A DNA stretch of 52,884 nt. It comes from Candidatus Thorarchaeota archaeon. GTDB lineage: Archaea > Asgardarchaeota > Thorarchaeia > Thorarchaeales > Thorarchaeaceae. Shown in pieces: positions 1 to 11,999 of this stretch. Within the stretch, counting starts at the first letter, position 1, and each line of letters opens with the position of its first letter. The stretch covers positions 1 through 52,884 of the forward strand of contig SOKL01000045.1 of the NCBI GenBank assembly GCA_004376265.1, in the 5' to 3' direction. A program made the translations under genes and the position numbers. Under the pieces are notes generated by a model. It saw nothing but the letters and a program-made list of their open reading frames with translations. It did not search any database and was not told the DNA's origin.

Positions 1-311
1 AGAGAATTTTTCCTCGTTCATTGATAGGAGCTTTTCTACTCACACCAATCCTAAGCATCGGTTGATGTCAGATGAAGTATATCATAAAGGAGCTGAGAGA
101 AGTTTAGCTCATGTTCATGGACCTTTCAGAAATCAAGGGAAAGATACTGGATGGTATTGAGAAGGACCTACGCGTTTTATGAAATCGAACCAAGATTGAA
201 AAAGACCTATAGAGAGAAAAGCCACGAATTATGCAGAAATGATTGATAATGAACCTCGAACTAGAAGTCCGTTGTCGTGGTTCAACATTGAAAGCAGGGG
301 GATAATGAATA

Positions 312-836
312 ATGATACCAGTTGCAAAGTGTGGCGATGTATTACTGTTTGTGGGAGTTGACCCGGGTTTTTTAGACACACTAGAGAACCTCTATAGTAA
401 ACCGATATTTGAAACCCAATTCGGTGCAGTACATACGTTTGGTATTTACATAACACCACAGAAAAAGAGAGTTCTGCTCATTGAGCAGTATTATGCTCTA
501 ATTTGGAAGCCCTTTTTTGGTCTTAGATGGCTGAAGTTTGAGGATGTTAACGATGGCTATGTTCGCCTAGAGGATGTCTCCGACTTTGACCGAATGAAAA
601 CGCTTAATGTGGATTTGGGTTTCGGAGAACTTGAAGTCAAACAAGACCACTTCAACAAATGGAGAGGAGATGCACTTACTAACAAACTCATAGAGTATCT
701 TTCACGTCAAGATGTTACCGAGAGATTCCAGAACCTTATAGAAGAAATTTCCAAGGGTGTAGAAGAGGGGAAATATAGACCAAAAAGAATATTCACTAGG
801 ATTGCTCTACGTCAAAAAAGACCAAAATTGGATTAA
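312..836 (+). CDS. hypothetical protein in accessory island
   Basis: 174-aa ORF with protein-like composition; purine-rich GGGGG just upstream; no family recognised. Confidence 0.6.
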   Translation: MIPVAKCGDVLLFVGVDPGFLDTLENLYSKPIFETQFGAVHTFGIYITPQKKRVLLIEQYYALIWKPFFGLRWLKFEDVNDGYVRLEDVSDFDRMKTLNVDLGFGELEVKQDHFNKWRGDALTNKLIEYLSRQDVTERFQNLIEEISKGVEEGKYRPKRIFTRIALRQKRPKLD

Positions 837-920
837 ATACAGAGGAAGGCACTCATTCTCCCTTTATTCTTAAACACAACCCCCATTATTGGTTTGAAAT
901 ATCCGTCTGTCAGGGAGTGA

Positions 921-1003
921 TGGCGTGACGTTATCCCTGGTCATTTTCCTGTGATACAGTTCTCCCAGTGTGAGATAATAACATATCTCGGAATTAACCA
1001 GCT
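921..1003. repeat. 83-bp dispersed element, copy A (inverted relative to 48356-48438)
   Basis: Ungapped manual alignment to the reverse complement of 48356-48438: 65/83 identical; contains a GAGATA-N6-TATCTC inverted repeat. Confidence 0.85.
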
Positions 1004-1009
1004 AGAAGA

Positions 1010-2164
1010 CTATTCTTTCTTTTTGATACTCCTCAGAATATCAAACCAAGAATCGGTAAACAATCTTCCAACATTTACGACCCAAGAAGACTTAGAGCTT
1101 TCCATAGTTTTTCTGTAAATCTGGTTTAACTCAGAATAGAGTCTTGTTATCGTTTTCAATCTAGCAGGACCATACTCGTTATTTATCCAATCATCAAAAT
1201 CATCTTTATCCAGAGTTTCCAGATACTCAAACATTTTCCTATCGTTAGGAATTTGGTCAAATCCCCGATAGATTTCCATCCATTCAAGAAACATATTATC
1301 CCTGGTGTCTTCCAACCAATTTTTCATCTTAGCGAGATTCAGTTTGAGGTGAAAGTGGATTTCTTGATTCTCAGGGGTTTCTGGATCCCATTCCTTATCA
1401 TCAACCTCACTCAACATACCTGCTCTGATAAGTTGTATCATTCCAAAAGCTCTCAATGCTACTGCGTTCATAATATGCTTAGGTAATCGATTTGCATCAG
1501 GTAGTATTTGAAATTCTGTTGCTTCAATGGCACGGTCATAGAATTGATTGTAAACCATATTCTCGATGAATATTGCTTCCTTTCCTTGAGTCGAAATCTT
1601 TGACTCAATTTGTCTTCGAAGGGAGTGTTTGGGGTAGCTTTGCACTTGTTGTTTTGCCAAGTCCCTGTATTCTCCCTGAATCTCAGACAAGAATACCGCA
1701 CTCAATGCTTCACCCTTGAATTTCGTCTTTTCCAATTGAAGTCTCAGTATTTCATTTGGAGTGAGAGGTGGACATTTGTCCTCAACACGTTTGTAAACTC
1801 GTTTATCCACTTCATGAATATCAGTTGACTTTTCTATCTTGATTATTCCATAATCTAGATTATCAAGACTCCTTTCAAACACACCAATTGTTGCTGGCGG
1901 GTTTATTCTTGTTCTAGCCACATCTTGTATAACCTTGGCATCAAAGGAAGCAGAATCAATTCCAACTCGCTCCCACGTTTGGTCGACAACTCCTACAATT
2001 ATGTACCCTCCCCCAGCATTAGCAAAACAAGCTATATCTTTAGCTAACTCTTTTCGTTCACTCTTCCCCTCTAGGGATTGTTTCTCTTTGAAATCAACAT
2101 TACTTGTTTCATCAGGTTTTTCCAAAAATTCCTTTAGAATATCTAATACTTCATCCTCTGCCAC
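1010..2164 (-). CDS. Schlafen/AlbA_2 domain protein with unknown helical C-terminal domain
   Basis: N-terminal ETSNVDFKE...LAKDIACFANAGGGYIIVGVVD...INPP...YKRVEDK signature of AlbA_2. Confidence 0.85.
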   Translation of the reverse strand: MAEDEVLDILKEFLEKPDETSNVDFKEKQSLEGKSERKELAKDIACFANAGGGYIIVGVVDQTWERVGIDSASFDAKVIQDVARTRINPPATIGVFERSLDNLDYGIIKIEKSTDIHEVDKRVYKRVEDKCPPLTPNEILRLQLEKTKFKGEALSAVFLSEIQGEYRDLAKQQVQSYPKHSLRRQIESKISTQGKEAIFIENMVYNQFYDRAIEATEFQILPDANRLPKHIMNAVALRAFGMIQLIRAGMLSEVDDKEWDPETPENQEIHFHLKLNLAKMKNWLEDTRDNMFLEWMEIYRGFDQIPNDRKMFEYLETLDKDDFDDWINNEYGPARLKTITRLYSELNQIYRKTMESSKSSWVVNVGRLFTDSWFDILRSIKKKE

Positions 2165-2267
2165 AGCAATTCAGCTCTCATTTCATCTTGTCTAGCAATC
2201 CCTCAGCACGGAATGGAATCCCCACATCACAATATAGGTAAATCTGTTTCTACGAACCATTTTCCAT

Positions 2268-4640
2268 TTATGGTACTCTCGACATTTCGATTTTCTTAAT
2301 TTTCTTTCGGATTTCTGGATGATTCCTTAGTTTAGATATCATTCGTACGCACCTAATAGTTCGGTCGGGAATTCCAATATCAAGTCGTTCAAGAACTTTC
2401 TGAATATGGTCTGAATTAATATCATCTAGAGAAAGGAGATTAACAAGATTGATGAGGCTATGAAGTAAAACTCCAGGGATCTTTGACTCAAGAACCAAAC
2501 TTTGTAGATTCTGACTTATTTTTGGAAATTTCTTTTTCAATTTTAATAATTCAGAGATTGAATAGCACAGAATGGATGCATCAAAGTATCCATCCCTTTC
2601 CAACATAACATACATGTGCAACCATAATTCTTCATTGGGCCCTGGAGAGGTTAATTCTTGGAATATTAGTCTTATCTGATTCAAGAAACTAGTACTGTCC
2701 CTAAATCCCAGTTGCAACGCTCTGAAGAATAACCTTGTTCTCTCTACAGCATCTTTCTCAACAAGTCCTATATGGAACCAAGATGCAGATTTCACACCTT
2801 TTGGAGATGTGTCACTAAGCTCTTTTGAAGAAAGAAGAGGCCACAACTTCCAATCTTTGTTAAGTGCATATTCAGCTTCTGCTAAACCTCTCCAAGAGCT
2901 TCTCTCCCCCGCATCTATTTTCGAAGCAACACTATAAGCTAGGTGGGATAGTCCATACGCCTCAGTTTGGAAAATGAGCCCTCCTAATCGAATCCATCCC
3001 CCAACATCATTTATCTCAACTGCATATGCATGATCCAATGCTTTTTCGAGTTTATCTATCCTTAACTCGATAGTGCTTTTGTGTTTAAGCGAGATTAAAT
3101 CCCCTACGTTCACTCTTGTTTGTTTAGGTGTTTCATATTTGGGCAATCCAAGCTCCCTAAGTAAGGCCCCTTTCTTCTCTTGTAATTCTAAGATTATGGC
3201 ATCTCTCTCTTTTCGTTGATCTTCTTTTGTTATATTGGGTTGTCGAATTTCTATTGCTCTGAAGAAAACTTCATTTTGTTCAATGATTCTTTTTGACAAA
3301 TCATCAGGGAATCTACCAATCTTAATTCCAGCCTTCTGTAGTACTAGCTCACCTTGTCCTGCGATAGAAGGATTGTAGTCCAGTGTTCCAATCCAAACTT
3401 TTCTGAGTTCCCTAGACCGTATCCAATTTGCACAAGGCCGTTTGTCGTGTTTTCTTGTCGTGCATGGTTCAAGTGTAGTAATAAGGTCTGCACCTCGTAC
3501 ACGTGGATCATCCCTCGCATTTCGTTCCAAAGCTATATACTCAGCATGATTCCCAATCCCTATTTCGCCGCGATATGCTTGAGAGATGATCTCACCATCT
3601 TTTACAATGACGGCTCCCACTTTGGGAGTTGATTTTCCAGACTCAGTCGGACATTTTTCCGCAAGATCAACAGCACGTCTAAAATGGAAATATCCTACTT
3701 TGTTCGGATTGCTTTCATCCAACTCAGTGAGTAATACCTCTTTTTTTGCAAGTCTTACCTCAGCTGCTTCGTGACTCAATAAGATCGAAATTTTCAAAGA
3801 TATATCACGACTATAACTCTGCCAATCATCTATTTTTATAGCGAATCCAGCTTTTTTTGTAAAACTCTTTACATCTTGTGGAGTTCCATCCCCAGTACTT
3901 TCAGGGATCTCTAATCGTTCAGATTTGTACTGTACTACGCCAATGTCATCTTTGGAGTTATTCAAAGATATTGCAGCTGTAATCTCATTTTCAAAAATAA
4001 TTGGACAAGAAAAAAGAACTTCTAGACCATCTTCATTTGCCGATATTGAGATGAAGTGGGTCCATGTGGGTGCAACAAAATCTAAACCCGTTGAATGGGT
4101 AATATCAAAATCGATTCCAAGAGTCTTAGTGACAAAATCAGCAACATTTTCGTAATCGTGAAACGGAAATTCTTCAACTGTCCGTTCCAACATATGATAT
4201 AGACTATTATCAAATTCATAGAATGAATCGCAAGAAAAACGAGCTGTATAGGGTGCTGTATCTCCAAAAAGTCTAGTTTGGTCTCTTGGCCTTAGTACGG
4301 TCCATCGTTGTTTCTTTTCACAAACAAAATGCAGCAGACGATTGTTGACAGTAATGCTTTGTTTCGTGCTAATTTCATCAACTACTCTTTCTAGAGTGTT
4401 GATATCTCGAACCTCGTATTCTAAATGAAATCCCTTGGGAATTGGATATTCTGGCAAATAATGCCCTGGAATTTGTTTCTCGCTTCCAAGAATGACAAGT
4501 CCTCTTATCACCACATACCTGTTGGGTTCTACTTCAGCTGCTAAGACCAGAAGGTGAAGTGAGGAGTATAAAGTTTCGAACTTTTTGATATATTCCCGAA
4601 ATTTACTCAGTTGTTCAATCATTACGAAACATTCCCTCAC
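2268..4640 (-). CDS. multidomain protein with central zinc-dependent cytidine/RibD-type deaminase domain and TPR-like C-terminal region
   Basis: PKVGAVIVKDG, NHAEYIAL and TTLEPCTTRKHDKRPC motifs; helical repeats with W..LG and AY..A patterns downstream. Confidence 0.8.
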   Translation of the reverse strand: MRECFVMIEQLSKFREYIKKFETLYSSLHLLVLAAEVEPNRYVVIRGLVILGSEKQIPGHYLPEYPIPKGFHLEYEVRDINTLERVVDEISTKQSITVNNRLLHFVCEKKQRWTVLRPRDQTRLFGDTAPYTARFSCDSFYEFDNSLYHMLERTVEEFPFHDYENVADFVTKTLGIDFDITHSTGLDFVAPTWTHFISISANEDGLEVLFSCPIIFENEITAAISLNNSKDDIGVVQYKSERLEIPESTGDGTPQDVKSFTKKAGFAIKIDDWQSYSRDISLKISILLSHEAAEVRLAKKEVLLTELDESNPNKVGYFHFRRAVDLAEKCPTESGKSTPKVGAVIVKDGEIISQAYRGEIGIGNHAEYIALERNARDDPRVRGADLITTLEPCTTRKHDKRPCANWIRSRELRKVWIGTLDYNPSIAGQGELVLQKAGIKIGRFPDDLSKRIIEQNEVFFRAIEIRQPNITKEDQRKERDAIILELQEKKGALLRELGLPKYETPKQTRVNVGDLISLKHKSTIELRIDKLEKALDHAYAVEINDVGGWIRLGGLIFQTEAYGLSHLAYSVASKIDAGERSSWRGLAEAEYALNKDWKLWPLLSSKELSDTSPKGVKSASWFHIGLVEKDAVERTRLFFRALQLGFRDSTSFLNQIRLIFQELTSPGPNEELWLHMYVMLERDGYFDASILCYSISELLKLKKKFPKISQNLQSLVLESKIPGVLLHSLINLVNLLSLDDINSDHIQKVLERLDIGIPDRTIRCVRMISKLRNHPEIRKKIKKIEMSRVP

Positions 4641-4715
4641 GTTCTAGTTTACATTATCACTCAACTCTTACTATATTAAAATAGCAGGTGTATCGATTTC
4701 GAAACCAATCATCAA

Positions 4716-4793
4716 ACACCTATGGGACGTGTCAAGCACGGCAACCCCGGTATCGGTGCTACAAAGTCTTCAGCATATGTACCGTTGAAGTAA
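4716..4793 (+). pseudogene. rps19: orphan 3' end of ribosomal protein uS19 gene, copy 1 (putative att scar)
   Basis: Translates TPMGRVKHGNPGIGATKSSAYVPLK*, matching the archaeal S19 / eukaryotic S15 C-terminus (cf. [20 protein letters not shown]); no upstream uS19 coding sequence. Confidence 0.9.
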
Positions 4794-4835
4794 GAACCAG
4801 TATTGTAGCACAGAATCATAAACACTAATTAGTGA

Positions 4836-6779
4836 ATGAGTAATTTCCATTTGTCTGTGGTACAAGTGGGATTCGTAAGAATAGATGAGGTTAGAGTCAA
4901 ACATGTTATTGTATTTCTTTCTCTATCTTTACTCATCGTTGCCCCATTAGTTTCATCCAATCAAAGAGTAACAGAACCTAATGTAGTTGTAGAAGAGTAT
5001 CAAATGGAGGGATCAACAGGATACACAGTCAGCAAAACATCCTGTTCACCTCAAAGTGAAGTTGTAGTCTATAATGGAACTGTCAAGGATCCAGGAGCAG
5101 ATTGGTATTCAGAGAGTTTCCATAGTGAAATCCATACTGGTATAACTAGTGTCAATGTAGAACTTAGCGGCACTGTGCCTATTAGTAATAAGATTTCCCA
5201 TATTTCATGGGCGAAATTCTATGGTAATCCAACCCTACCTCTTTTGAACTATTCTGAAGTGACTGTTTCAGTCCCCCTTAAATCTCTTCGAGGGTCAGCT
5301 AACATAACCGTATATGTGTATCCGAAAGCATGGCCAGATACTGAATATCGTGATTACTGGGAGATTGCCACACATTTAGAAGAGGGCAACTCTGAAACTC
5401 TGGTGTTGAACCCCTCCATTAACAGAACTTACAATCTTAGCTCTGGTTGGATTGTTCGCTCCAATATACTTGTAGACATCATTTCAACAGAAGAGTCACT
5501 AATTCAAATTGGCGAGGTTGTAATCTCAGCCAGGTCAACCGAAGATCTCTATCCAGTCACATTTGATTTTCAAAGTCCTGATGGAGAGAGCCTTCTTCTT
5601 AACCCATACATGTACACACTTCGTGAAACAGACACACATACAGTAAATGGAGAGTTAGCCTGTTATCCAGCGCTGGAACTGACTCGTACAGGAAACATCA
5701 CAGAATCCTCAATTTTTGTGCAGCGAACCTTCAATGAAACCCTCTATCTTGCAGCAGGTCAGTATGAGGGAGTTGCAGGATGGTTCACTATGAGTGAGGG
5801 AATTTCGGGATGGCCCCATATGAGTCTTCATGATTCAACATTCAATGTCAGCTTCGTAGTCGAACCTGGAGATTCAATACTTGTCGAAATTAGAGTAACC
5901 GCGTACCGTCTATCTATTGACCTATCCCCGTCATTCGCCTATAGTGTGGTCTGGATAATCGCTGACGAAGCTAGATATAATGGCCTTTTTCCCTTACAAG
6001 AAACCGAGTATCTATTCATACCTGGGAGTGAAGTATACCTTATCACTTTGGGAGCGTCATTCTTAACAAGTACCTATATCTTTGTAGAGACTGAAGGTTC
6101 AACTAGCGTCAAAGTATCGATCACGTATCCACACTTGTCCTTTTTCGGTATGATTCTCGATTGGGGACAGATGATTGGATTAGTTGGAGCATTGTTGTTG
6201 CTTTCAGTATTCGTTTATGAGGGAATAAAGAACAACTTCGTTGGAATGAGAAAACACTGTAATCATAGAATCAGTTTCCTTCCTATCTCTCTCTCTTTCA
6301 TGACACTGATTTTACCATGGGTGAACTATACTTACGAGAGGACATTCACCAATCCAGCTTTTACTGCATTCGCTACAATTATGGTCCCGATATTTACTAC
6401 GTTCTTCTGGAATCCAACGAGTCAAGTCACACCAATATCAAGTAGCAATCCATTTCCAAATGCAATTCCTATCATTTTCCTCTATTGGATTCCAATAGTC
6501 TATCTTAGTTATTTGATAATTACAAGTAGAAACTGTATCAGTCATGATCTGTCAAGAAATGATATGCATCCTTTACTAAGAATAGCAGTTATTGGAGGAC
6601 CATTCATAATAGGTTGTTATTATCTGTGGCTCTGTATATTGGGATTGTATTTCATCGATATTGGACTAGTTGCGGCACTTCTATCACTACCATCATGGGT
6701 CATCGTTCTCAGATTAGAAAAACGAAATAATCAGATTCAGTCAGCAAATGACAATTCGCAGTCACCAATAAACCCGTAA
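4836..6779 (+). CDS. hypothetical membrane protein (signal peptide, extracellular beta-rich region, ~5-6 C-terminal TM helices); cassette cargo
   Basis: 647-aa ORF with hydrophobic N-terminus, many NxS/T sequons and a hydrophobic C-terminal third; stop codon lies inside uS19 fragment 2; true start uncertain. Confidence 0.75.
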   Translation: MSNFHLSVVQVGFVRIDEVRVKHVIVFLSLSLLIVAPLVSSNQRVTEPNVVVEEYQMEGSTGYTVSKTSCSPQSEVVVYNGTVKDPGADWYSESFHSEIHTGITSVNVELSGTVPISNKISHISWAKFYGNPTLPLLNYSEVTVSVPLKSLRGSANITVYVYPKAWPDTEYRDYWEIATHLEEGNSETLVLNPSINRTYNLSSGWIVRSNILVDIISTEESLIQIGEVVISARSTEDLYPVTFDFQSPDGESLLLNPYMYTLRETDTHTVNGELACYPALELTRTGNITESSIFVQRTFNETLYLAAGQYEGVAGWFTMSEGISGWPHMSLHDSTFNVSFVVEPGDSILVEIRVTAYRLSIDLSPSFAYSVVWIIADEARYNGLFPLQETEYLFIPGSEVYLITLGASFLTSTYIFVETEGSTSVKVSITYPHLSFFGMILDWGQMIGLVGALLLLSVFVYEGIKNNFVGMRKHCNHRISFLPISLSFMTLILPWVNYTYERTFTNPAFTAFATIMVPIFTTFFWNPTSQVTPISSSNPFPNAIPIIFLYWIPIVYLSYLIITSRNCISHDLSRNDMHPLLRIAVIGGPFIIGCYYLWLCILGLYFIDIGLVAALLSLPSWVIVLRLEKRNNQIQSANDNSQSPINP

Positions 6780-6838
6780 AACACAGCAACCCCGGTATAG
6801 GAGCCACAAAATCCTCAGCTTATGTCCCACTGAAATAG
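6755..6838 (+). pseudogene. rps19: orphan 3' end of ribosomal protein uS19 gene, copy 2 (putative att scar)
   Basis: Translates FAVTNKPVKHSNPGIGATKSSAYVPLK*; begins at the F of the conserved GEF motif; 13 of 14 differences from copy 1 in the last 21 codons are synonymous. Confidence 0.9.
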
Positions 6839-6867
6839 ATGGCAATGGTCATTATTTCATGAAACCC

Positions 6868-6910
6868 TGCTCTGTCAGTTTGATTGAGCAGAGTCACTTC
6901 TCTTTTCCAT
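6868..6910 (+). terminator. hairpin plus pyrimidine tract after uS19 fragment 2
   Basis: CTGCTC...GAGCAG stem followed by TTCTCTTTTCC. Confidence 0.35.
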
Positions 6911-6976
6911 TTAGTTTATCACTTCAAATGCAATATATCCCATAGCTGATTCCATTTACGAGAGGGAACGATTCGC

Positions 6977-8194
6977 GTGGAAGAGGAAAGTAGAGGTATA
7001 CCAAGAAACGTCTTGGTTATGTCTGTAGGCAACACGATAACAACGTCAGCAAACTCGCTATGGATAATGTTCATGCCCTATCTTTTTGCTGATGTAGGAA
7101 TAATTCCGTTCTACATTGGAATCATCTTCACAGGCCTGGCAGTATCAAGAGGAACAGCATCACTTGTTGGTGGTAGAGCTGCAGATAGAATGGGTCGAAA
7201 ACAAGTCATCTACATTGGATATGGGAACTACATTCTTGGAGCACTAGTAATTCTCTTTTCCTTGATATTCTTTTCAACCAATACAAACCTCACAGGGCTT
7301 TTTGCAGTTATAGGTTACATGTGGATGATGGTAGGTAGTGGGTTGCAGAGACCTGCCTCATCAATGCTGTTGATAGAAAGTAGTCCACAGAAACGAAGAG
7401 GGCTCTCATTTATGTTCGCTACAAGATTCCTCCCATCAATCCCCCCTGCGGTTCTAATTCTTATAGGAACATCACTATATGTCAACAATCAGTTCTGGCT
7501 TGGTCTTTCCCTAGGTATCGCAGGACTGTTAGTTGTTCTTTTATTATTCATTGTCTTTCTTCAAGAAACACATATTGGAGCGACCCAAAGCCAGCAAAAA
7601 ATGAGAAGGCCGAGTATTCCACGTTTTGATGGTTTCCTAATTCTACTAGTTGCGGCGTTTGCACTTGATGGAATCTCAAGTAGCGGTCTCTCGTGGTACG
7701 TTCCTATCTTTATTGGGCGGGCAAACGTGGACTTCTATGGAGTCATGATATCAGTTTCCACATTAGTTATTGCTATTTCAGCCTTAGTTTCAGGAGGTCT
7801 GGTAGATCGATTCGGAACTAAAACTGCGATTCTTGGAGGTTGGAGTTTACTTGCAGTCACCGTTGCTTTGTTCCCGTTCGGTTCAACATTACTGGAGATA
7901 GTTATCCTCTACTCGATTTGGGCAGGACTGGACATGGTAGATGTATCAGTACCACCTCTCGCAATTGCCGAGAAATATCCAAAGGAAATGCGTGCATCTA
8001 TCATGGGAACCTATTCAATGTCTGTATCCCTTCTGAGCATGGTTGGACCTGTACTGATATCGTTCGGTCTTCTTCTTGGAGATAATGTGCCCTTTTACAT
8101 GAAAGCAGTAATGAACTCTGTTGGAGTCTTATTCTTCATACTTGCCACAAGACCTAGTCAAATCATTGATGATGATGTTTCAGCTCGCCAATGA
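6977..8194 (+). CDS. MFS transporter; cassette cargo
   Basis: GGRAADRMGRK and GGLVDRFGTK motif A copies, ~12 hydrophobic segments; stop codon lies inside uS19 fragment 3. Confidence 0.9.
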   Translation: MEEESRGIPRNVLVMSVGNTITTSANSLWIMFMPYLFADVGIIPFYIGIIFTGLAVSRGTASLVGGRAADRMGRKQVIYIGYGNYILGALVILFSLIFFSTNTNLTGLFAVIGYMWMMVGSGLQRPASSMLLIESSPQKRRGLSFMFATRFLPSIPPAVLILIGTSLYVNNQFWLGLSLGIAGLLVVLLLFIVFLQETHIGATQSQQKMRRPSIPRFDGFLILLVAAFALDGISSSGLSWYVPIFIGRANVDFYGVMISVSTLVIAISALVSGGLVDRFGTKTAILGGWSLLAVTVALFPFGSTLLEIVILYSIWAGLDMVDVSVPPLAIAEKYPKEMRASIMGTYSMSVSLLSMVGPVLISFGLLLGDNVPFYMKAVMNSVGVLFFILATRPSQIIDDDVSARQ

Positions 8195-8262
8195 GACAGG
8201 TAAAGCACGGAAATCCTGGAATCGGTGCTACAAAGTCTTCTGCCTATGTACCGCTGAAATAA
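8179..8262 (+). pseudogene. rps19: orphan 3' end of ribosomal protein uS19 gene, copy 3 (putative att scar)
   Basis: Translates FSSPMRQVKHGNPGIGATKSSAYVPLK*; 9 differences from copy 1 in the last 21 codons, all synonymous. Confidence 0.9.
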
Positions 8263-8353
8263 AAGAAAGGGTGATACCTCTCCCCAATCAGAGCAAAGTT
8301 TCAACGAACAGTTGATATGATTTTGATTCGTAGAGGACATAGGTAGAAGCAAA

Positions 8354-8608
8354 TTGGGAGACTTTTTCCTGACGTATGGTGAAGGCGAGTCGTATTTCCG
8401 ACGGATTGTCTATGCAAACATCATACTTTATGTTGTAATGGCAATCGCCATCGTGTCAGCCTTCATCCTGTTCATGGTGGACATCATTATCCTGATTCTG
8501 ATAGCTCTTATAGCTGGAATTGCTTCTCTCGCGTGCTCTCTGCTTTTTATATCGAGGAATCCTCCAGCTGAGTACGATGAAGAAACCCTCGACCATCTTC
8601 TAGAATAG
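8354..8608 (+). CDS. small two-TM membrane protein
   Basis: 84-aa ORF, TTG start after AGGTAG, two long hydrophobic helices, acidic tail. Confidence 0.65.
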   Translation: MGDFFLTYGEGESYFRRIVYANIILYVVMAIAIVSAFILFMVDIIILILIALIAGIASLACSLLFISRNPPAEYDEETLDHLLE

Positions 8609-10756
8609 ACCAATGAACCACAAGTGTAACTGTGCAATGACCGGCAAGAACAGTGTTGCAGTTAGTGAGATGACAACAAGCAAAGTATTGATTGATGGTC
8701 CTGCAGTGTCTTTGAATGGATCGCCAACCATGTCTCCAGTGACAGAAATATCATGAACTCGATGCCAGTCCTCGGTTCCTTCTTCGTATGTCGTATATTC
8801 GGGGGATTCGATGATTTTCTTGGTATTGTCCCAAGCACCGCCTGCATTACCCATCAATAAGGCCATTATCAGACCAGATAAGACCGCACCACCAAGAAAG
8901 CCGGCAAGAGCCTGAAGACCGAGAATTACTCCAGTGGCAATGGTCACAATGATTGCTAGTAACGTACCCGGCATAAGCTCTCGAATAGCCCCAGAAGTCG
9001 CAATCTCTATACATTTGTCGTAGTCAGGTGTTGATGTGCCTTCAAGGATACCAGGATCCTCTCTGAACTGTCTGCGGATCTCCTCGATCATTCGCTCAGA
9101 GTTGCGTTCCACACCAAGAATCAAGATTGCTGAGAATACCACAGGCACAAGAGAACCCATGAGTGCGCCAGCTAAGACCGAGGGATGAGCTATATTCACT
9201 ACTACGAGTCCACTAATACCGGGTATATTGAGTGTATCAGTCGCTTCAATAAATGCTGCAAAGAGTGCTAGGACTGAGAGAGATGATGCACCAATGGCAA
9301 ATCCCTTTGTGATGGCTTTAGCTGTGTTTCCACTAGCATCCAGTTTATCACAAGCCACAATTGCCTCCTTGGGTGCTTGAGCTTGTTCGATAATCCCCCT
9401 TGCATTGTCTACTATCGGACCGTATGCATCAGAGCTCATTATCATTCCATTTGTGGAAAGAAGACCGACTGCAGCAATTGCTACACAATAGATGCCACCT
9501 TCCCACTCACCAAATCCTAAACCAGCACCAAGAGTATAGGAAATCACCATTGCTACTGCAATTCCAAGCACAGAAGGTAAGACACTCAGAAGGCCATACG
9601 CATAACCAGAGAGGATTAAATTAGCAGCACTTTTGTCCGCTGAATCGACCATCTTGGATACAGGCTTAAAACCAGCAAAGCCACGTTCGCTTGTGAAGAC
9701 ATCACTTGTGAAACCGATAAAGACTCCTGCAATAAGTCCAATAATGGCAACGATGGCAATTACATAGTTCAGCCCTAGTATGAGAATGATTGTAACCACA
9801 AGAATTGCGAATAGTAGAGTTGTGATGTAGGTCCCGCGATTAAGCATAGGCCCGGGGTCATGTCCCTCTTTTGGTCTAACCATGAAGACTCCCAACACTG
9901 AGGCTAGAGTACCTAAAGCTGCAATCATGAGGGGAAGCAATGCAAAGGGAACAGGGGGAGAGAAATGCAGATCTATACCAGCACCAAGAATTGCTGCAGC
10001 GAGGATTGCAGCTACATTGCTGTCGTATATGTCAGCGCCAGTTCCGGCTACATCTCCAACATTGTCTCCAACTGCATCAGCGATTGCTGCTGGGTTTCGA
10101 GGGTCGTCTTCAGGAATACGGTACTCAATCTTCCCAACAAGATCCGCAGAGAGATCAGCTGTTTTCGTAAAAATTCCTCCACCTGCTTTGGCAAACAATG
10201 CTACAGTGCTTGCTCCAAAGGAGAATCCAGTTAGGATTTCCCATAGACCGGCCTCGCGGGGAATGACTATGAAGGTCGAATCAGGAAGTATGATGTTCCA
10301 TAACCAGTATAATGATGTGAGGCCAACAAGTGCGATTCCTGCAATCATCAGACCCATGACTGATCCTGCTCGGAAAGCTACCTTGAAAGCAGGATTCAAT
10401 CCACCTGAGACTGCTGCAGCTGCGGTGCGGCGGTTTGCCTTGGTTGCAACTACTAGACCAATATATCCAGCTGCCATACTAGCAAGAGAACCTAAGATGT
10501 ATGAGATAGCGATGGGAATACCTAAGTCCCTGAACACAAGGGCTATCAGAACTGCAAGAGTGATTGTGAAAATCCCAAGAATTCGATACTGAACCTTAAT
10601 GAAAGAGTTCGCACCCTTCTCGATCAGGGAGCTGACCTCTTTCATCCGGTCACTGCCCTCATCTGACTTCATAACAATTCGATAGATGTATAGAGCAACG
10701 AAGACAGAGAGAAGACCAGATAATAGTCCAGTTGATAGAAACAGTATTTCAGACAT
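8600..10756 (-). CDS. hppA: membrane-bound ion-translocating pyrophosphatase, probably K+-independent H+-PPase
   Basis: GGGIFTKTAD, EDDPRNP, GDNVGD, DAYGPIVDNA, GGAWDN and GDPFKDTAGP motifs; GNTAK (Lys) at the K+-dependence determinant. Confidence 0.95.
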   Translation of the reverse strand: MSEILFLSTGLLSGLLSVFVALYIYRIVMKSDEGSDRMKEVSSLIEKGANSFIKVQYRILGIFTITLAVLIALVFRDLGIPIAISYILGSLASMAAGYIGLVVATKANRRTAAAAVSGGLNPAFKVAFRAGSVMGLMIAGIALVGLTSLYWLWNIILPDSTFIVIPREAGLWEILTGFSFGASTVALFAKAGGGIFTKTADLSADLVGKIEYRIPEDDPRNPAAIADAVGDNVGDVAGTGADIYDSNVAAILAAAILGAGIDLHFSPPVPFALLPLMIAALGTLASVLGVFMVRPKEGHDPGPMLNRGTYITTLLFAILVVTIILILGLNYVIAIVAIIGLIAGVFIGFTSDVFTSERGFAGFKPVSKMVDSADKSAANLILSGYAYGLLSVLPSVLGIAVAMVISYTLGAGLGFGEWEGGIYCVAIAAVGLLSTNGMIMSSDAYGPIVDNARGIIEQAQAPKEAIVACDKLDASGNTAKAITKGFAIGASSLSVLALFAAFIEATDTLNIPGISGLVVVNIAHPSVLAGALMGSLVPVVFSAILILGVERNSERMIEEIRRQFREDPGILEGTSTPDYDKCIEIATSGAIRELMPGTLLAIIVTIATGVILGLQALAGFLGGAVLSGLIMALLMGNAGGAWDNTKKIIESPEYTTYEEGTEDWHRVHDISVTGDMVGDPFKDTAGPSINTLLVVISLTATLFLPVIAQLHLWFIGLF

Positions 10757-10896
10757 TGTTGCCTCGGTTTTGCGATTGAAAACGTCATTATAGAAGTTGC
10801 TATTTGTTCTACAACTTTTAAAAATTTTCAGGAGTATGGCATGTTGAATGCAATGTTCGCTGGAAAGTTCTTGATTTTAGGTATCCCAATTTAATT

Positions 10897-11529
10897 TCAA
10901 TACCATTCAATCCGGCTGAGATATGGTTTCAATGCAATGGGAATCTTTGCTTGTTCCTTCAATTTCGCCTCTGCTGTGACCTTCAATTCAGAATCAAGAC
11001 CGAGTTTCATCAAATTTGGACAGAGAAAGAGTGCAGACACATCTATTGTCTTAAATTGATTCTTCTCCAATGTCAGATTTCGGAGCTTCTTGCACGTACT
11101 TAGGATTGAGAGGTCGATGCTCTCGAGTTTATTCTCATAGAGGTGGAGTGCTTTCAGGTCTTTGCATTTACCCAGTGAAACTAAATCAATGACCTTGAGC
11201 TTGTTAAATGATAAATCGAGGTGCATGAGACTCGTACATCCCTCTAAAGGTGACAAATCAATAAGTTCCATGATATTTCCATTTAGCGAGAGTTCCAATA
11301 GCTCAGAATGGTTCCGAAGCACTGAAAGATCGATGTTAAGTATCTCATTTCCCGAGAGGGTCAATCCCTCTAAGTTTGGGAATTGGTACAATACAGAGAG
11401 GTCAGTAGTTGCAATTCTCCTGTCATTCAGGTCAATGCTTGTTGTGCTGGTGTCGAAACGCTCGACCACTTTACCGCCTTTCTTTGTTTCGCTCCAGATT
11501 GTAATCTCTACCATTGGTGAAACATCCAA
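10897..11529 (-). CDS. leucine-rich repeat protein
   Basis: Tandem ~22-aa LxxLxLxxNxLxxIDLSxL repeats. Confidence 0.9.
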   Translation of the reverse strand: MDVSPMVEITIWSETKKGGKVVERFDTSTTSIDLNDRRIATTDLSVLYQFPNLEGLTLSGNEILNIDLSVLRNHSELLELSLNGNIMELIDLSPLEGCTSLMHLDLSFNKLKVIDLVSLGKCKDLKALHLYENKLESIDLSILSTCKKLRNLTLEKNQFKTIDVSALFLCPNLMKLGLDSELKVTAEAKLKEQAKIPIALKPYLSRIEWY

Positions 11530-11600
11530 GAGTTCTACTTATAGCCCCTACTTATACTCTGGTGTGGTTAGACCCTACAAAAACTACGCAGTTTCTAGTA

Positions 11601-11999
11601 TCAGCGTGCTTTCAGTTTTCTAATCGCAATCAAATCCTCAATGAATAGGATTCCAAAAATAATGTCGATTGTTACAACCAATACTACCCAGAGCGAAGCC
11701 TGTCCCAAGAAGAACCATGCAACACACGCAAGGAAAAACCAGGTCTTTTCGAAAACTGCCATCATGATGAGACCGTGGTTTTCCATCATGTTCTGACTGA
11801 CGAAGAAGAAACCAATCCCGAATACGAAGATTAGCCCCATTAACGAATCAAACCAGAGCAGGGTATTAGGAATCTCAAGACCAAATGCTGCGAAATATCC
11901 AACGTCTATCCTTGATAAAACAAAGAAAGCTATTGCTAGAGTCCAGTTCCATAAAGCCGCAATTAGAAACAATAGTCGGTGGTATCGTTCTCTGTCCAA
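11601..11999 (-). CDS. hypothetical four-TM membrane protein
   Basis: 132-aa hydrophobic ORF with AALWN, FGIGF and EK motifs. Confidence 0.7.
   Translation of the reverse strand: MDRERYHRLLFLIAALWNWTLAIAFFVLSRIDVGYFAAFGLEIPNTLLWFDSLMGLIFVFGIGFFFVSQNMMENHGLIMMAVFEKTWFFLACVAWFFLGQASLWVVLVVTIDIIFGILFIEDLIAIRKLKAR

What the first reader, a model, noticed from the sequence alone, without database searches (positions are those of the whole stretch)
4716..8262. Integron-like cassette array delimited by repeated 3' ends of the ribosomal protein uS19 gene
Seen: three same-strand ~80-bp segments (4716-4793, 6755-6838, 8179-8262) each encode the uS19 C-terminus through its stop codon (..VKH[G/S]NPGIGATKSSAYVPLK*), with no uS19 N-terminus. 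Exactly one unrelated gene lies between successive copies (a 647-aa membrane protein, then an MFS transporter), and a defence-like block precedes copy 1. Copies 2 and 3 start at the same codon, the F of the GEF motif. Known: elements that integrate into a coding gene carry a replacement 3' end and displace the old one, as with e14 and icd/icdC. Inference: successive integrase-less cassettes of about 1.4-2 kb were inserted at the rps19 3' end, each restoring the gene, so an essential r-protein gene acts as a gene-capture platform. No recombinase is visible, so it must act in trans, lie left of the window, or the process is homology-driven. I am not aware of this being described in Asgard archaea.
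Basis: partly seen in the sequence, partly recalled or inferred. Interest (0 to 1): 0.92.

Follow-up and report, generated by a model that had tools for sequence, protein, structure and literature searches.

The report
Insertion hot spot at archaeal rps19
In Thorarchaeota the end of the essential ribosomal protein gene rps19 is a place where foreign genes pile up, each insertion bringing a fresh gene end and leaving the old one behind, most likely driven by a homing endonuclease.

Summary
The window holds three same-strand copies of the last 20-27 codons of uS19 (0.01 expected by chance). They separate a 647-aa membrane protein gene, an MFS gene and the conserved H+-pyrophosphatase gene.

The only intact rps19 of this MAG is on a 3.6-kb contig, C99. 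Across Thorarchaeota the locus reads TPR gene, rps19, 0 to 8 cassettes each closed by an rps19 tail, then H+-PPase. In 15 of 15 loci that hold both, the intact gene is the 5'-most copy on the same strand.

Empty and partly filled alleles occur in a related species and in independent metagenomes, with breakpoints inside the tails. Tails differ mainly at third codon positions. Intact genes are mosaics whose synonymous divergence jumps about 3-fold from codon ~106.

No integrase lies near any array, and the tails form no hairpins. The gene pair that recurs next to the intact rps19 is a winged-helix protein plus a 719-aa protein with a confident double-LAGLIDADG fold and both catalytic acidic residues.

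Best reading (about 0.55): homing-endonuclease elements that carry a recoded replacement 3' end, as mobile endonuclease ORFs do in fungal mitochondria. I found no description of this in archaea.

The parts
1..4715 (.). Distal part of the gene-proximal (youngest) insertion. It holds ORF 312-836 (+, 174 aa, no family), 1010-2164 (-, 384 aa, Schlafen AlbA_2) and 2268-4640 (-, 790 aa, cytidine/dCMP deaminase domain). Its proximal part is presumed to be contig C99: rps19, then a convergent 306-aa gene and a convergent 719-aa LAGLIDADG gene.
   Evidence: ORFs. Pfam. PADLOC weak. C99 content. The join is not shown.
4716..4793 (+). rps19 tail 1, a displaced 3' end (TPMGR-VKHGNPGIGATKSSAYVPLK*)
4836..6779 (+). 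Cassette gene for a 647-aa predicted membrane protein (fam8). Its 3' end overlaps tail 2 in another frame. Homologues lie just after rps19 in G005, G007, G016, G022 and G012.
6755..6838 (+). rps19 tail 2 (FAVTNKP-VKHSNPGIGATKSSAYVPLK*). In metagenome X2 the matching sequence is the working end of an intact rps19 that sits directly before the MFS gene.
6977..8194 (+). Cassette gene for an MFS transporter (405 aa). Its 3' end overlaps tail 3. A 75%-identical homologue sits in the G015 array.
8179..8262 (+). rps19 tail 3 (FSSPMRQ-VKHGNPGIGATKSSAYVPLK*), the oldest and probably native end. It is about 91% identical to the functional tail of the empty-site genome G006. It continues an intact rps19 in metagenome X7.
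8600..10756 (-). H+-translocating pyrophosphatase, the conserved right flank of the hot spot, convergent with rps19
   Evidence: Pfam H_PPase E 6e-211. Synteny.

Best explanation
The array is the footprint of repeated invasions of the rps19 3' end by mobile elements that use a LAGLIDADG homing endonuclease.

Inferred mechanism: the endonuclease cuts the native rps19 near codons 106-117. The break is repaired from an element-bearing copy. That copies in a synonymously recoded replacement end (from about codon 106 to the stop), the endonuclease module and any cargo. The old end, from F110 or V117 to the stop, is left downstream as a dead fragment.

Each new invasion happens at the working gene. 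The youngest cassette is therefore gene-proximal and the native tail lies next to the H+-PPase gene. Endonuclease modules later decay or are deleted. Cargo such as transporters, surface proteins and defence-like genes stays, and unequal recombination between tails can duplicate or delete cassettes.

Shown: the anatomy, the polymorphism, the mosaic gene, the orthology of displaced tails to native tails, and the position and fold of the endonuclease gene.

Inferred: cleavage of rps19 by this protein, repair-mediated copying, and that cargo-only cassettes once travelled with an endonuclease.
For: 1. Anatomy. In 15 of 15 loci holding an intact gene and at least one fragment, the intact gene is the only one and is 5'-most on the same strand. 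The flanks are conserved: TPR gene upstream and PPase downstream.

2. Presence/absence. G006 has rps19 directly before the PPase gene. An X7 contig joins an intact rps19 (GEFSITNRAV) to tail 3 at base 8203. An X2 contig joins an intact rps19 to tail 2 at base 6762.

3. Foreign new ends and native old ends. The displaced tail of G001 differs from the intact tail of its endonuclease-free relative G012 at 5 of 57 nt, while G001's new tail differs at 10 of 57. Body divergence for that pair is 18 of 315 nt.

4. Mosaic intact genes. In 12 pairs with body synonymous difference 0.1-0.2, the tail value is 0.458 against 0.149 for the body. The jump begins at codons 105-106, upstream of the repeated block, as a co-conversion tract would.

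5. Selection signature. Adjacent tails differ at 9.9 of 21 third positions but only 3.8 of 42 first and second positions (48 pairs). Last-in-locus tails are more decayed: 2.33 against 1.06 deviant residues.

6. The agent. The 306-aa + 719-aa module sits convergent right after the intact rps19 in L003, L067, L083, L095, L099, L103, L106 (decayed), L108, L111 and L115, with a remnant in L093. It also does in G093:C48. A profile of the family hits only these first-position elements among the array loci.

7. Fold. The AF2 model has pLDDT 89 and pTM 0.86. The top PDB matches are I-Tsp061I, PI-SceI, I-SceI and I-DmoI, with TM by target up to 0.65. The terminal acidic residue of both motifs is kept in 13 of 13 homologues.

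8. Precedent. Fungal mitochondrial mobile endonuclease ORFs carry a foreign C-terminus, leave the native one downstream, and differ mostly synonymously (PMC3630166, passages read).
Against: Most cassettes hold no endonuclease gene. No remnant was detected in distal cassettes of the 72 loci scanned. The only distal case is a 27%-identical paralogue upstream of a fragment tail on G077:C14.

Single-gene cassettes are very compact, for example 43 nt from the stop of tail 1 to the 647-aa start. That is hard to get by decay of a 7-kb element.

In genus g25 the repeat has a sharp common left edge inside codon F110 and a right edge just after the stop, across many unrelated cassettes. This is also what a site-specific att block would look like.

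Several array-bearing genomes (G013, G018, G080) have no 719-family match at all. Pfam LAGLIDADG_3 is below threshold (E 0.11).

The family is multi-copy, and most paralogues are not next to rps19. G093 has the endonuclease next to rps19 without a detectable displaced tail. Cleavage activity and target are untested.
Confidence: 0.55

Rival explanations
1. Integron-like or CIME-like site-specific recombination. The roughly 85-nt tail would be an att site. A recombinase encoded elsewhere (in trans, perhaps of an unrecognised family) would insert and excise circular cassettes that each carry one tail.
For: The repeat block has sharp, shared boundaries across unrelated cassettes. Cassettes are compact, often single-gene and carry cargo only. 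The same cassette family has different neighbours: the NosD-like family in G014, G018 and G022, and MFS in G000, G015 and L096. G015 has an 'empty cassette' of 90 nt. The left part of tail 2 stays with the 647-aa cassette in G000 and G022 while the right part differs, as in a reciprocal crossover inside the tail.
Against: None of the 54 PF00589 matches in 86 family genomes lies on a tail-bearing contig near a tail. Twelve of the 17 genomes with 3 or more tails have no match. No recombinase family appears among the 25 listed of 73 Pfam families hit by the 67 cassette ORFs; the other 48, mostly single-member families, were not shown. The tails have no hairpin potential (z -0.64 to 1.13). Genes lie on both strands (36 + and 31 -). 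Recoding of the intact gene starts at codon ~106, upstream of the repeated block. Serine recombinases and transposases were not searched.
Confidence: 0.2
2. Homologous recombination only. Any DNA carrying a tail copy integrates by single crossover into rps19. Whole arrays are swapped between relatives by double crossover in rps19 and the PPase gene. Unequal crossing-over expands and contracts arrays. The nearby endonuclease gene would be just another passenger.
For: Breakpoints vary within the tail. Cassettes 5-7 of G071 carry paralogues. Elevated divergence spreads upstream of the block. Assemblies break inside the tails.
Against: Tails in one array are only about 70-85% identical over 60-85 nt, which is poor substrate for homologous recombination. 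This does not explain how a gene first acquires a tail, why the block edges are sharp, or why the endonuclease module is always in first position.
Confidence: 0.15
3. Assembly or binning artefact: the repeated tails come from chimeric joining of strain variants.
For: The window comes from a MAG with 8% contamination. Logan contigs break at tail 1. Tails lie at contig ends in G047.
Against: Source-run contigs span tail 2 (5275-7434) and tail 3 (7433-9909). Arrays recur in many independent assemblies from several genera, including long contigs such as G013:C12 (87 kb) and G080:C13 (79 kb).
Confidence: 0.02

Closest known systems
Mobile endonuclease ORFs (mORFs) with C-terminal duplication in fungal mitochondria (Allomyces macrogynus atp6; Glomus atp6, atp9, cox2, nad3; Endoconidiophora cob and atp6)
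   Same: A LAGLIDADG (or GIY-YIG) endonuclease gene lies next to a host gene whose 3' end has been replaced by a foreign copy. That copy is diverged in DNA but conserved in protein. The native 3' end is left downstream and matches close relatives lacking the element. Read as passages in PMC3630166 and PMC6279837. Mirrored here.
   Different: Here the setting is an archaeal chromosome and an essential ribosomal protein gene. The endonuclease gene is convergent and not fused in frame. It is paired with a winged-helix protein and sometimes a HerA/FtsK-like ATPase. Elements carry cargo. Repeated rounds give arrays of up to 9 tails.
Integrative elements that restore the 3' end of a protein gene (e14 and phage 21 at icd; ICESt1/3 and CIMEs at fda), recalled from memory and not read here
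   Same: Direct repeats of a gene 3' end flank the inserted DNA, the gene stays functional, and tandem accretion at one site is possible.
   Different: Those use a tyrosine integrase encoded at one end. None was found here.
Integrons, including those reported in Archaea (recalled, not read here)
   Same: An array of small cassettes is each closed by a repeated site next to a fixed platform, and cargo is diverse.
   Different: There is no intI and no attC hairpins. Genes lie on both strands. The repeat is a coding gene end.
HeimM2 of Heimdallarchaeum (Wu et al. 2022, PMC8813620, passages read)
   Same: This is an Asgard mobile element of about 8 kb. It carries a homing-endonuclease homologue plus a leucine-rich-repeat cargo gene, and the authors propose it uses the endonuclease for site-specific insertion next to a conserved gene.
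   Different: It is inserted between the 16S rRNA gene and a tRNA gene. The passages read describe no gene-end replacement, no arrays and no rps19.
Free-standing homing endonucleases of phages ('intronless homing', seg and mob genes), recalled; PMC13096335 seen only as a search listing
   Same: A free-standing endonuclease gene lies beside its conserved target gene. The resident allele is protected by sequence differences, and flanking markers co-convert.
   Different: To my knowledge there is no retained duplicate of the target's 3' end and there are no cassette arrays.

Membership tests
Integron | intI tyrosine recombinase next to the array | tested here: not met
   PF00589 gives no match on any tail-bearing contig near a tail (0 of 54 matches in 86 genomes). 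Twelve of 17 genomes with 3 or more tails have none.
Integron | attC sites: imperfect inverted repeats that fold as single-strand hairpins | tested here: not met
   DNA folds of the 3 tails and the intact end give z-scores of -0.64, 1.13, -0.23 and 0.99.
Integron | Cassettes mostly promoterless and co-oriented | tested here: not met
   Of 67 cassette ORFs of at least 100 aa, 36 are on the tail strand and 31 on the opposite strand.
Integrase-type integrative element with gene-restoring attP (e14/icd type) | Direct repeats of the target's 3' end flank the insert and the gene is restored | tested here: met
Integrase-type integrative element with gene-restoring attP (e14/icd type) | Integrase gene inside the element | tested here: not met
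   The complete 7-kb element of G001 holds only the 307-aa, 719-like and 1090-aa HerA-like genes. Serine recombinases were not searched.
Mobile endonuclease ORF with C-terminal duplication (fungal mitochondrial mORF type) | Endonuclease gene directly beside the hybrid host gene | tested here: met
   This holds in at least 11 loci, always in first position, including this MAG's C99.
Mobile endonuclease ORF with C-terminal duplication (fungal mitochondrial mORF type) | Inserted C-terminus diverged in DNA but conserved in protein, with the native C-terminus downstream matching element-free relatives | tested here: met
   G001 against G012: displaced tail 5 of 57 nt, new tail 10 of 57 nt. G000 tail 3 against G006 and X7. 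Third-position bias.
Mobile endonuclease ORF with C-terminal duplication (fungal mitochondrial mORF type) | The endonuclease cuts the element-free allele at the insertion site | not testable with these tools
   This needs biochemistry.
LAGLIDADG homing endonuclease (for the 719-aa protein) | Two LAGLIDADG motifs, each ending in a catalytic acidic residue | tested here: met
   Motif 1 reads ..SDG and motif 2 reads ..E[DE]G or QDG in 13 of 13 aligned homologues.
LAGLIDADG homing endonuclease (for the 719-aa protein) | Double alpha-beta-beta-alpha-beta-beta-alpha fold | tested here: met
   AF2 pLDDT 89. The top-ranked Foldseek PDB matches listed with E <= 0.001 are LAGLIDADG homing endonucleases, intein endonucleases or a maturase (15 matches passed that threshold), with TM by target 0.58-0.65 for I-DmoI and I-Tsp061I.
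LAGLIDADG homing endonuclease (for the 719-aa protein) | Sequence-profile membership (Pfam LAGLIDADG_3 above its cut-off) | tested here: not met
   E 0.11 and 13.2 bits against a cut-off of 22.5. No hit with the full protein. The Atlas gives only a lead, 0.82-0.88.
Tn7-like transposon at an att site beside a conserved gene | tnsA/B/C and tniQ genes, with a 5-bp target duplication | tested here: inconclusive
   No such family is among the 25 Pfam families listed for the cassette ORFs, but 48 further families were not shown. The duplication here is 60-85 nt, not 5 bp. The paper on archaeal Tn7 does not mention S19.

The most novel reading that the evidence does not exclude
Thorarchaeota carry a 'homing cassette platform'. 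A family of free-standing LAGLIDADG endonuclease elements would repeatedly invade the 3' end of the essential rps19 gene. Each would bring a synonymously recoded, cleavage-immune gene end plus cargo. Over time rps19 would then anchor an integron-like but recombinase-free array of up to nine accessory-gene cassettes. An arms race between endonuclease and target would be played out at synonymous sites of a ribosomal protein gene. Paralogues of the same endonuclease family, one of which sits inside the uL23-uL2 operon of this MAG, may do the same at other core genes.
Probability: 0.45. Interest if true: 0.85.

Novelty: new variant of a known kind. Interest (0 to 1): 0.8.

Why it matters
It would be the first chromosomal, prokaryotic counterpart of the mitochondrial mobile ORFs that replace a gene's C-terminus. 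It would also show that homing endonucleases can build multi-cassette gene-capture arrays without an integrase. [quoted passage not shown]

There are practical consequences. It explains why rps19 contigs break in Thorarchaeota MAGs. It warns that the last ~30 codons of rps19 have a different history from the rest of this phylogenetic marker gene. It also offers a natural, apparently safe insertion site and a candidate rare-cutting endonuclease for genetics in Asgard archaea.

Four literature searches and passages of four Asgard or archaeal mobile-element papers turned up no description of it. Supplements were closed and could hold relevant annotations.

Tried and rejected
Tyrosine integrase near the arrays: PF00589 was searched in 5 genomes and in 86 family genomes. 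None lies near a tail.

G000:C300 has an integrase fragment and a weak S19 hit (E 0.15). The S19 hit is chance, and the contig's proteins look unlike the rest of the MAG.

attC-like hairpins: not found.

Tn7-like targeting: the archaeal Tn7 preprint does not mention S19.

Recent horizontal transfer of cassettes: cassette proteins are no more similar between genomes than flanking core proteins. For example the 647-aa family is 42-78% identical against 71-86% for the PPase, so there is no sign of very recent transfer.

A single fixed crossover point: rejected. G000/G022 suggests a break near VKH, G002/G009 near the stop, and G001 at V117/K118.

Gene-end duplications beside other endonuclease paralogues in this MAG (C215, C331): none found by blastn-short or tblastx.

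Join of C99 to the window start: no homologue of the window's first ORFs exists in any fetched element, and no ORF runs off the window's left end on the minus strand. The join stays inferred.

306-aa partner protein: the model is confident (pLDDT 88) with tandem winged helices and a long coiled coil, but no significant PDB match (best E 0.02) and no Pfam, NCBIfam or PADLOC family.

PDB sequence search with the 719-aa protein: 0 hits.

PADLOC on cargo: only weak partial hits.

RNA evidence: no RNA holder was listed for the stretch, so expression is not assessed.

Metagenome runs X2, X6 and X7 showed no cover left of about base 6760. This is reported here only and not used as evidence of absence.

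G047's three identical tails all lie at contig ends and say nothing about fresh insertions.

Full report
**1. The observation**

The window (contig C20 of a 3.04-Mb, 393-contig MAG) holds three + strand segments that encode the end of archaeal uS19 through a stop codon.
- A degenerate pattern for NPGIGATK hits exactly these three places. It finds 3 against 0.01 expected, and 0 of 100 shuffles reach 3.
- Copies 2 (6755-6838) and 3 (8179-8262) start at the F codon of GEF, right after an in-frame stop. Copy 1 is recognisable from about 4716.
- Between them lie a 647-aa ORF (no Pfam family; hydrophobic segments) and an MFS_1 transporter.
- A Schlafen/AlbA_2 protein and a deaminase-domain protein lie to the left. 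A 718-aa H+-pyrophosphatase on the opposite strand lies to the right.
- The four copies in the MAG differ almost only at third codon positions. The one amino-acid change is G to S in copy 2.

**2. Where the intact gene is**

Pfam PF00203 finds a single full rps19 in the MAG, on the 3,583-bp contig C99.
- Two convergent genes follow it: a 306-aa ORF and a 719-aa ORF that is cut by the contig end.
- Titles of related public records identify the organism as Candidatus Thorarchaeota.

**3. The locus in relatives**

The tail pattern was scanned in 40 relatives and in all 86 genomes held for the family.
- Clustered same-strand copies appear in many genomes of the window's genus. They also appear in at least two other genera, g25 and g16.
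- Seventeen genomes have 3 or more copies at up to one mismatch. The maximum is 8 by pattern, or 9 by tblastn, within 16 kb on G071:C84.
- Genomes outside the family sampled have 0 or 1.
- In the fetched loci I found 115 complete tails: 55 at the end of an intact gene and 60 fragments. Some loci overlap the same assemblies. Exact containment was removed, but partial overlap may remain.
- In 15 of 15 loci that hold both kinds, the intact gene is the single 5'-most copy, and all fragments follow on the same strand.
- The 48 tail-to-tail spacings run from 90 to 5,221 nt, with a median of 1,567.
- The flanks are conserved: a small TPR protein gene upstream, and the H+-PPase and further shared genes downstream.
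- G006 has no cassette, with rps19 facing the PPase gene. G005 has one, G022 and G009 have at least two, the window's genome at least three, and G015 at least six.

**4. Polymorphism in nature**

Logan contigs of four runs from four studies were laid on bases 1-10800.
- Contigs of the probable source run span tail 2 (5275-7434) and tail 3 (7433-9909).
- In another study (X2), a contig carries rps19 body sequence (..IGHVLGEFS..) joined at base 6762 to tail 2 and the MFS gene. That strain therefore has rps19, MFS, tail and PPase.
- In a third study (X7), a contig carries GEFSITNRAV joined at base 8203 to tail 3 and the spacer before the PPase gene. This is an empty site, 97% identical over 403 nt.
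- Other loose ends sit at 6770, 6825, 6831 and 8200, all inside tails.
- The window's array therefore reads as a history. MFS entered first, the 647-aa gene next, and the block to the left last.

**5. What the tails tell**

*Decay and selection.*
- Adjacent tails in one array differ at 9.9 of 21 third positions but only 3.8 of 42 first and second positions (48 pairs).
- Twenty-five of 60 fragments carry no residue unseen in intact genes. Eleven carry three or more, including stops.
- Last-in-locus tails are more decayed (2.33 against 1.06 deviant residues).
- Tails thus diverged mostly while under protein-level selection, and they decay after displacement.

*Mosaic intact genes.*
- Among intact genes, synonymous divergence in the last 20 codons is about three times that of the body in close pairs: 0.458 against 0.149 in 12 pairs, and 0.350 against 0.051 in 1 pair.
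- In 18 pairs with under 8% body divergence, the jump starts at codons 105-106. The X2 loose end shows the same start.

*Native against new ends.*
- The displaced tail of G001 is nearly the same as the working tail of its close, element-free relative G012 (5 of 57 nt). G001's working tail differs at 10 of 57, and the bodies differ at 18 of 315.
- Tail 3 of the window is likewise about 91% identical to the working tail of G006.

*Block edges.*
- In genus g25 the repeated block has a sharp left edge inside codon F110 and ends just after the stop.
- In other cases the fragment begins only at V117 or K118.

**6. What moves it**

*No integrase, no hairpins.*
- PF00589 hits 29 of 86 genomes, and none of the 54 matches lies on a tail-bearing contig near a tail. 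Twelve of the 17 genomes with 3 or more tails have none.
- The tails show no hairpin potential.
- Cassette ORFs lie on both strands (36 + and 31 -).
- They encode NosD-like, TPR, LRR, nitrilase-like, ABC, MFS and methyltransferase proteins. Only 25 of the 73 matched families were listed.

*The recurring module.*
- By contrast, the 306-aa + 719-aa pair of C99 recurs, convergent, immediately after the intact rps19. It is in L003, L067, L083, L095, L099, L103, L108, L111 (3.4 kb away) and L115.
- L106 holds a decayed copy followed by a degenerate tail, and L093 holds a remnant. G093:C48 in another genus also has it.
- In G001 the whole element can be read: rps19, a convergent 307-aa gene, a convergent 719-like gene, a convergent 1,090-aa HerA/FtsK-like ATPase gene, then a displaced tail. 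It is about 7 kb with no integrase.
- A profile of the 719 family hits only such first-position elements in the 72 loci scanned. One 27%-identical paralogue lies in a cassette upstream of a fragment tail on G077:C14.
- Close relatives L095 and L067 (module present) and L096 (module absent) share the same tail and about 50 nt beyond it, then diverge. This fits later loss of the module.
- G005 keeps about 45 nt of the 306-gene end after its rps19 stop.

**7. The 719-aa protein**

- An AlphaFold2 model of residues 185-714, built from 13 homologues, is confident (pLDDT 89, pTM 0.86).
- The top-ranked Foldseek PDB matches listed with E <= 0.001 (15 passed that threshold) are LAGLIDADG homing endonucleases, intein endonucleases or a maturase: I-Tsp061I, PI-SceI, the TliVMA intein endonuclease, I-SceI and the bI3 maturase. 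I-DmoI and WhiA follow, and TM by target reaches 0.65.
- Both motifs keep their terminal acidic residue in 13 of 13 homologues. By my recollection that argues for an active enzyme rather than a WhiA-like binder.
- Pfam is only sub-threshold (E 0.11). The Atlas gives a lead to LAGLIDADG_3 clusters.
- The 306-aa partner models as tandem winged helices plus a long coiled coil, with no significant structural match.

**8. Interpretation**

The best fit is homing with gene-end replacement. This is the pattern described for mobile endonuclease ORFs in fungal mitochondria. There, an inserted foreign C-terminus is conserved in protein and diverged in DNA, and the native C-terminus is left downstream (PMC3630166 and PMC6279837, passages). 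In Asgard archaea, a Heimdallarchaeum element with a homing-endonuclease homologue and LRR cargo beside the 16S rRNA gene has been noted (PMC8813620, passage).

The main weakness is that most cassettes carry no endonuclease or detectable remnant, and they are compact. A trans-acting site-specific system (0.2) or plain homologous recombination (0.15) therefore remains possible, at least for cassette shuffling. Cassettes 5-7 of G071 carry paralogues, which shows that arrays also grow by tandem duplication.

**9. Novelty and limits**

- Four full-text searches and passages of the Asgard and archaeal mobile-element papers read gave no description of rps19 tail arrays.
- Cleavage, target site, expression and the C99-to-window join are untested.
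- All genomes are MAGs, many of them incomplete.

Noticed in passing
G000 contig C215:7179-13638 (same MAG, not in the window): The classic r-protein operon is interrupted. uL3, uL4 and uL23 are followed by about 1.2 kb without ORFs and a 746-aa paralogue (41% identity) of the LAGLIDADG-like protein, then uL2. After uL2 comes an FtsZ-like gene, not rps19. No duplicated gene end was found there.
   Followed up: partly
L086 and L094 (G073:C1, closed 2.58-Mb Thorarchaeota chromosome CP070658.1, about 1,263.5 kb and 1,318.9 kb): There are two full-length rps19 genes (136 aa each) in inverted orientation 55 kb apart. Each has the TPR gene upstream, and their 3' ends point outward. This may be a segmental inverted duplication or an inversion between copies.
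   Followed up: no
86 genomes of the family: A Pfam-type tyrosine recombinase (PF00589) was found in only 29 of 86 Thorarchaeota-family genomes, although all 14 control genomes, including four archaea, have one. A XerA-type enzyme may be missing or too divergent in this group.
   Followed up: no
L035 (G015:C188), oriented positions 3440-3592: Two complete tails lie only 90 nt apart (..VPLK*KIISSPMQRVKHG..). This is an 'empty cassette'.
   Followed up: no
L054 (G071:C84) 9150-11779: Three consecutive cassettes carry paralogues of one 230-257-aa family. This points to tandem duplication of cassette-plus-tail units.
   Followed up: partly
window 10897-11529 (-): The LRR protein gene downstream of the PPase gene belongs to a family that also occurs inside arrays of genus g25 (L055, L056).
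   Followed up: no
window 8258-8596: One contig of run X6 skips 337 nt between tail 3 and the PPase gene. This is an indel polymorphism in the spacer.
   Followed up: no
G000 contig C300 (2,028 bp): This contig holds a partial tyrosine integrase and other ORFs with arginine-rich proteins unlike the rest of the MAG. It may be contamination. The weak S19 Pfam hit there (E 0.15, with a stop inside) is chance.
   Followed up: partly
L190 (G093:C48) 3812-6265: In another genus a 663-aa member of the endonuclease family ends 48 nt from the rps19 stop, convergent. No displaced tail lies within the 5.8 kb downstream. This is a free-standing arrangement without duplication.
   Followed up: partly
G000 C215:10629-11081: The N-terminal part of the 746-aa paralogue contains three tandem repeats of a roughly 50-aa helix-turn-helix-like unit (tblastx self-matches).
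   Followed up: no
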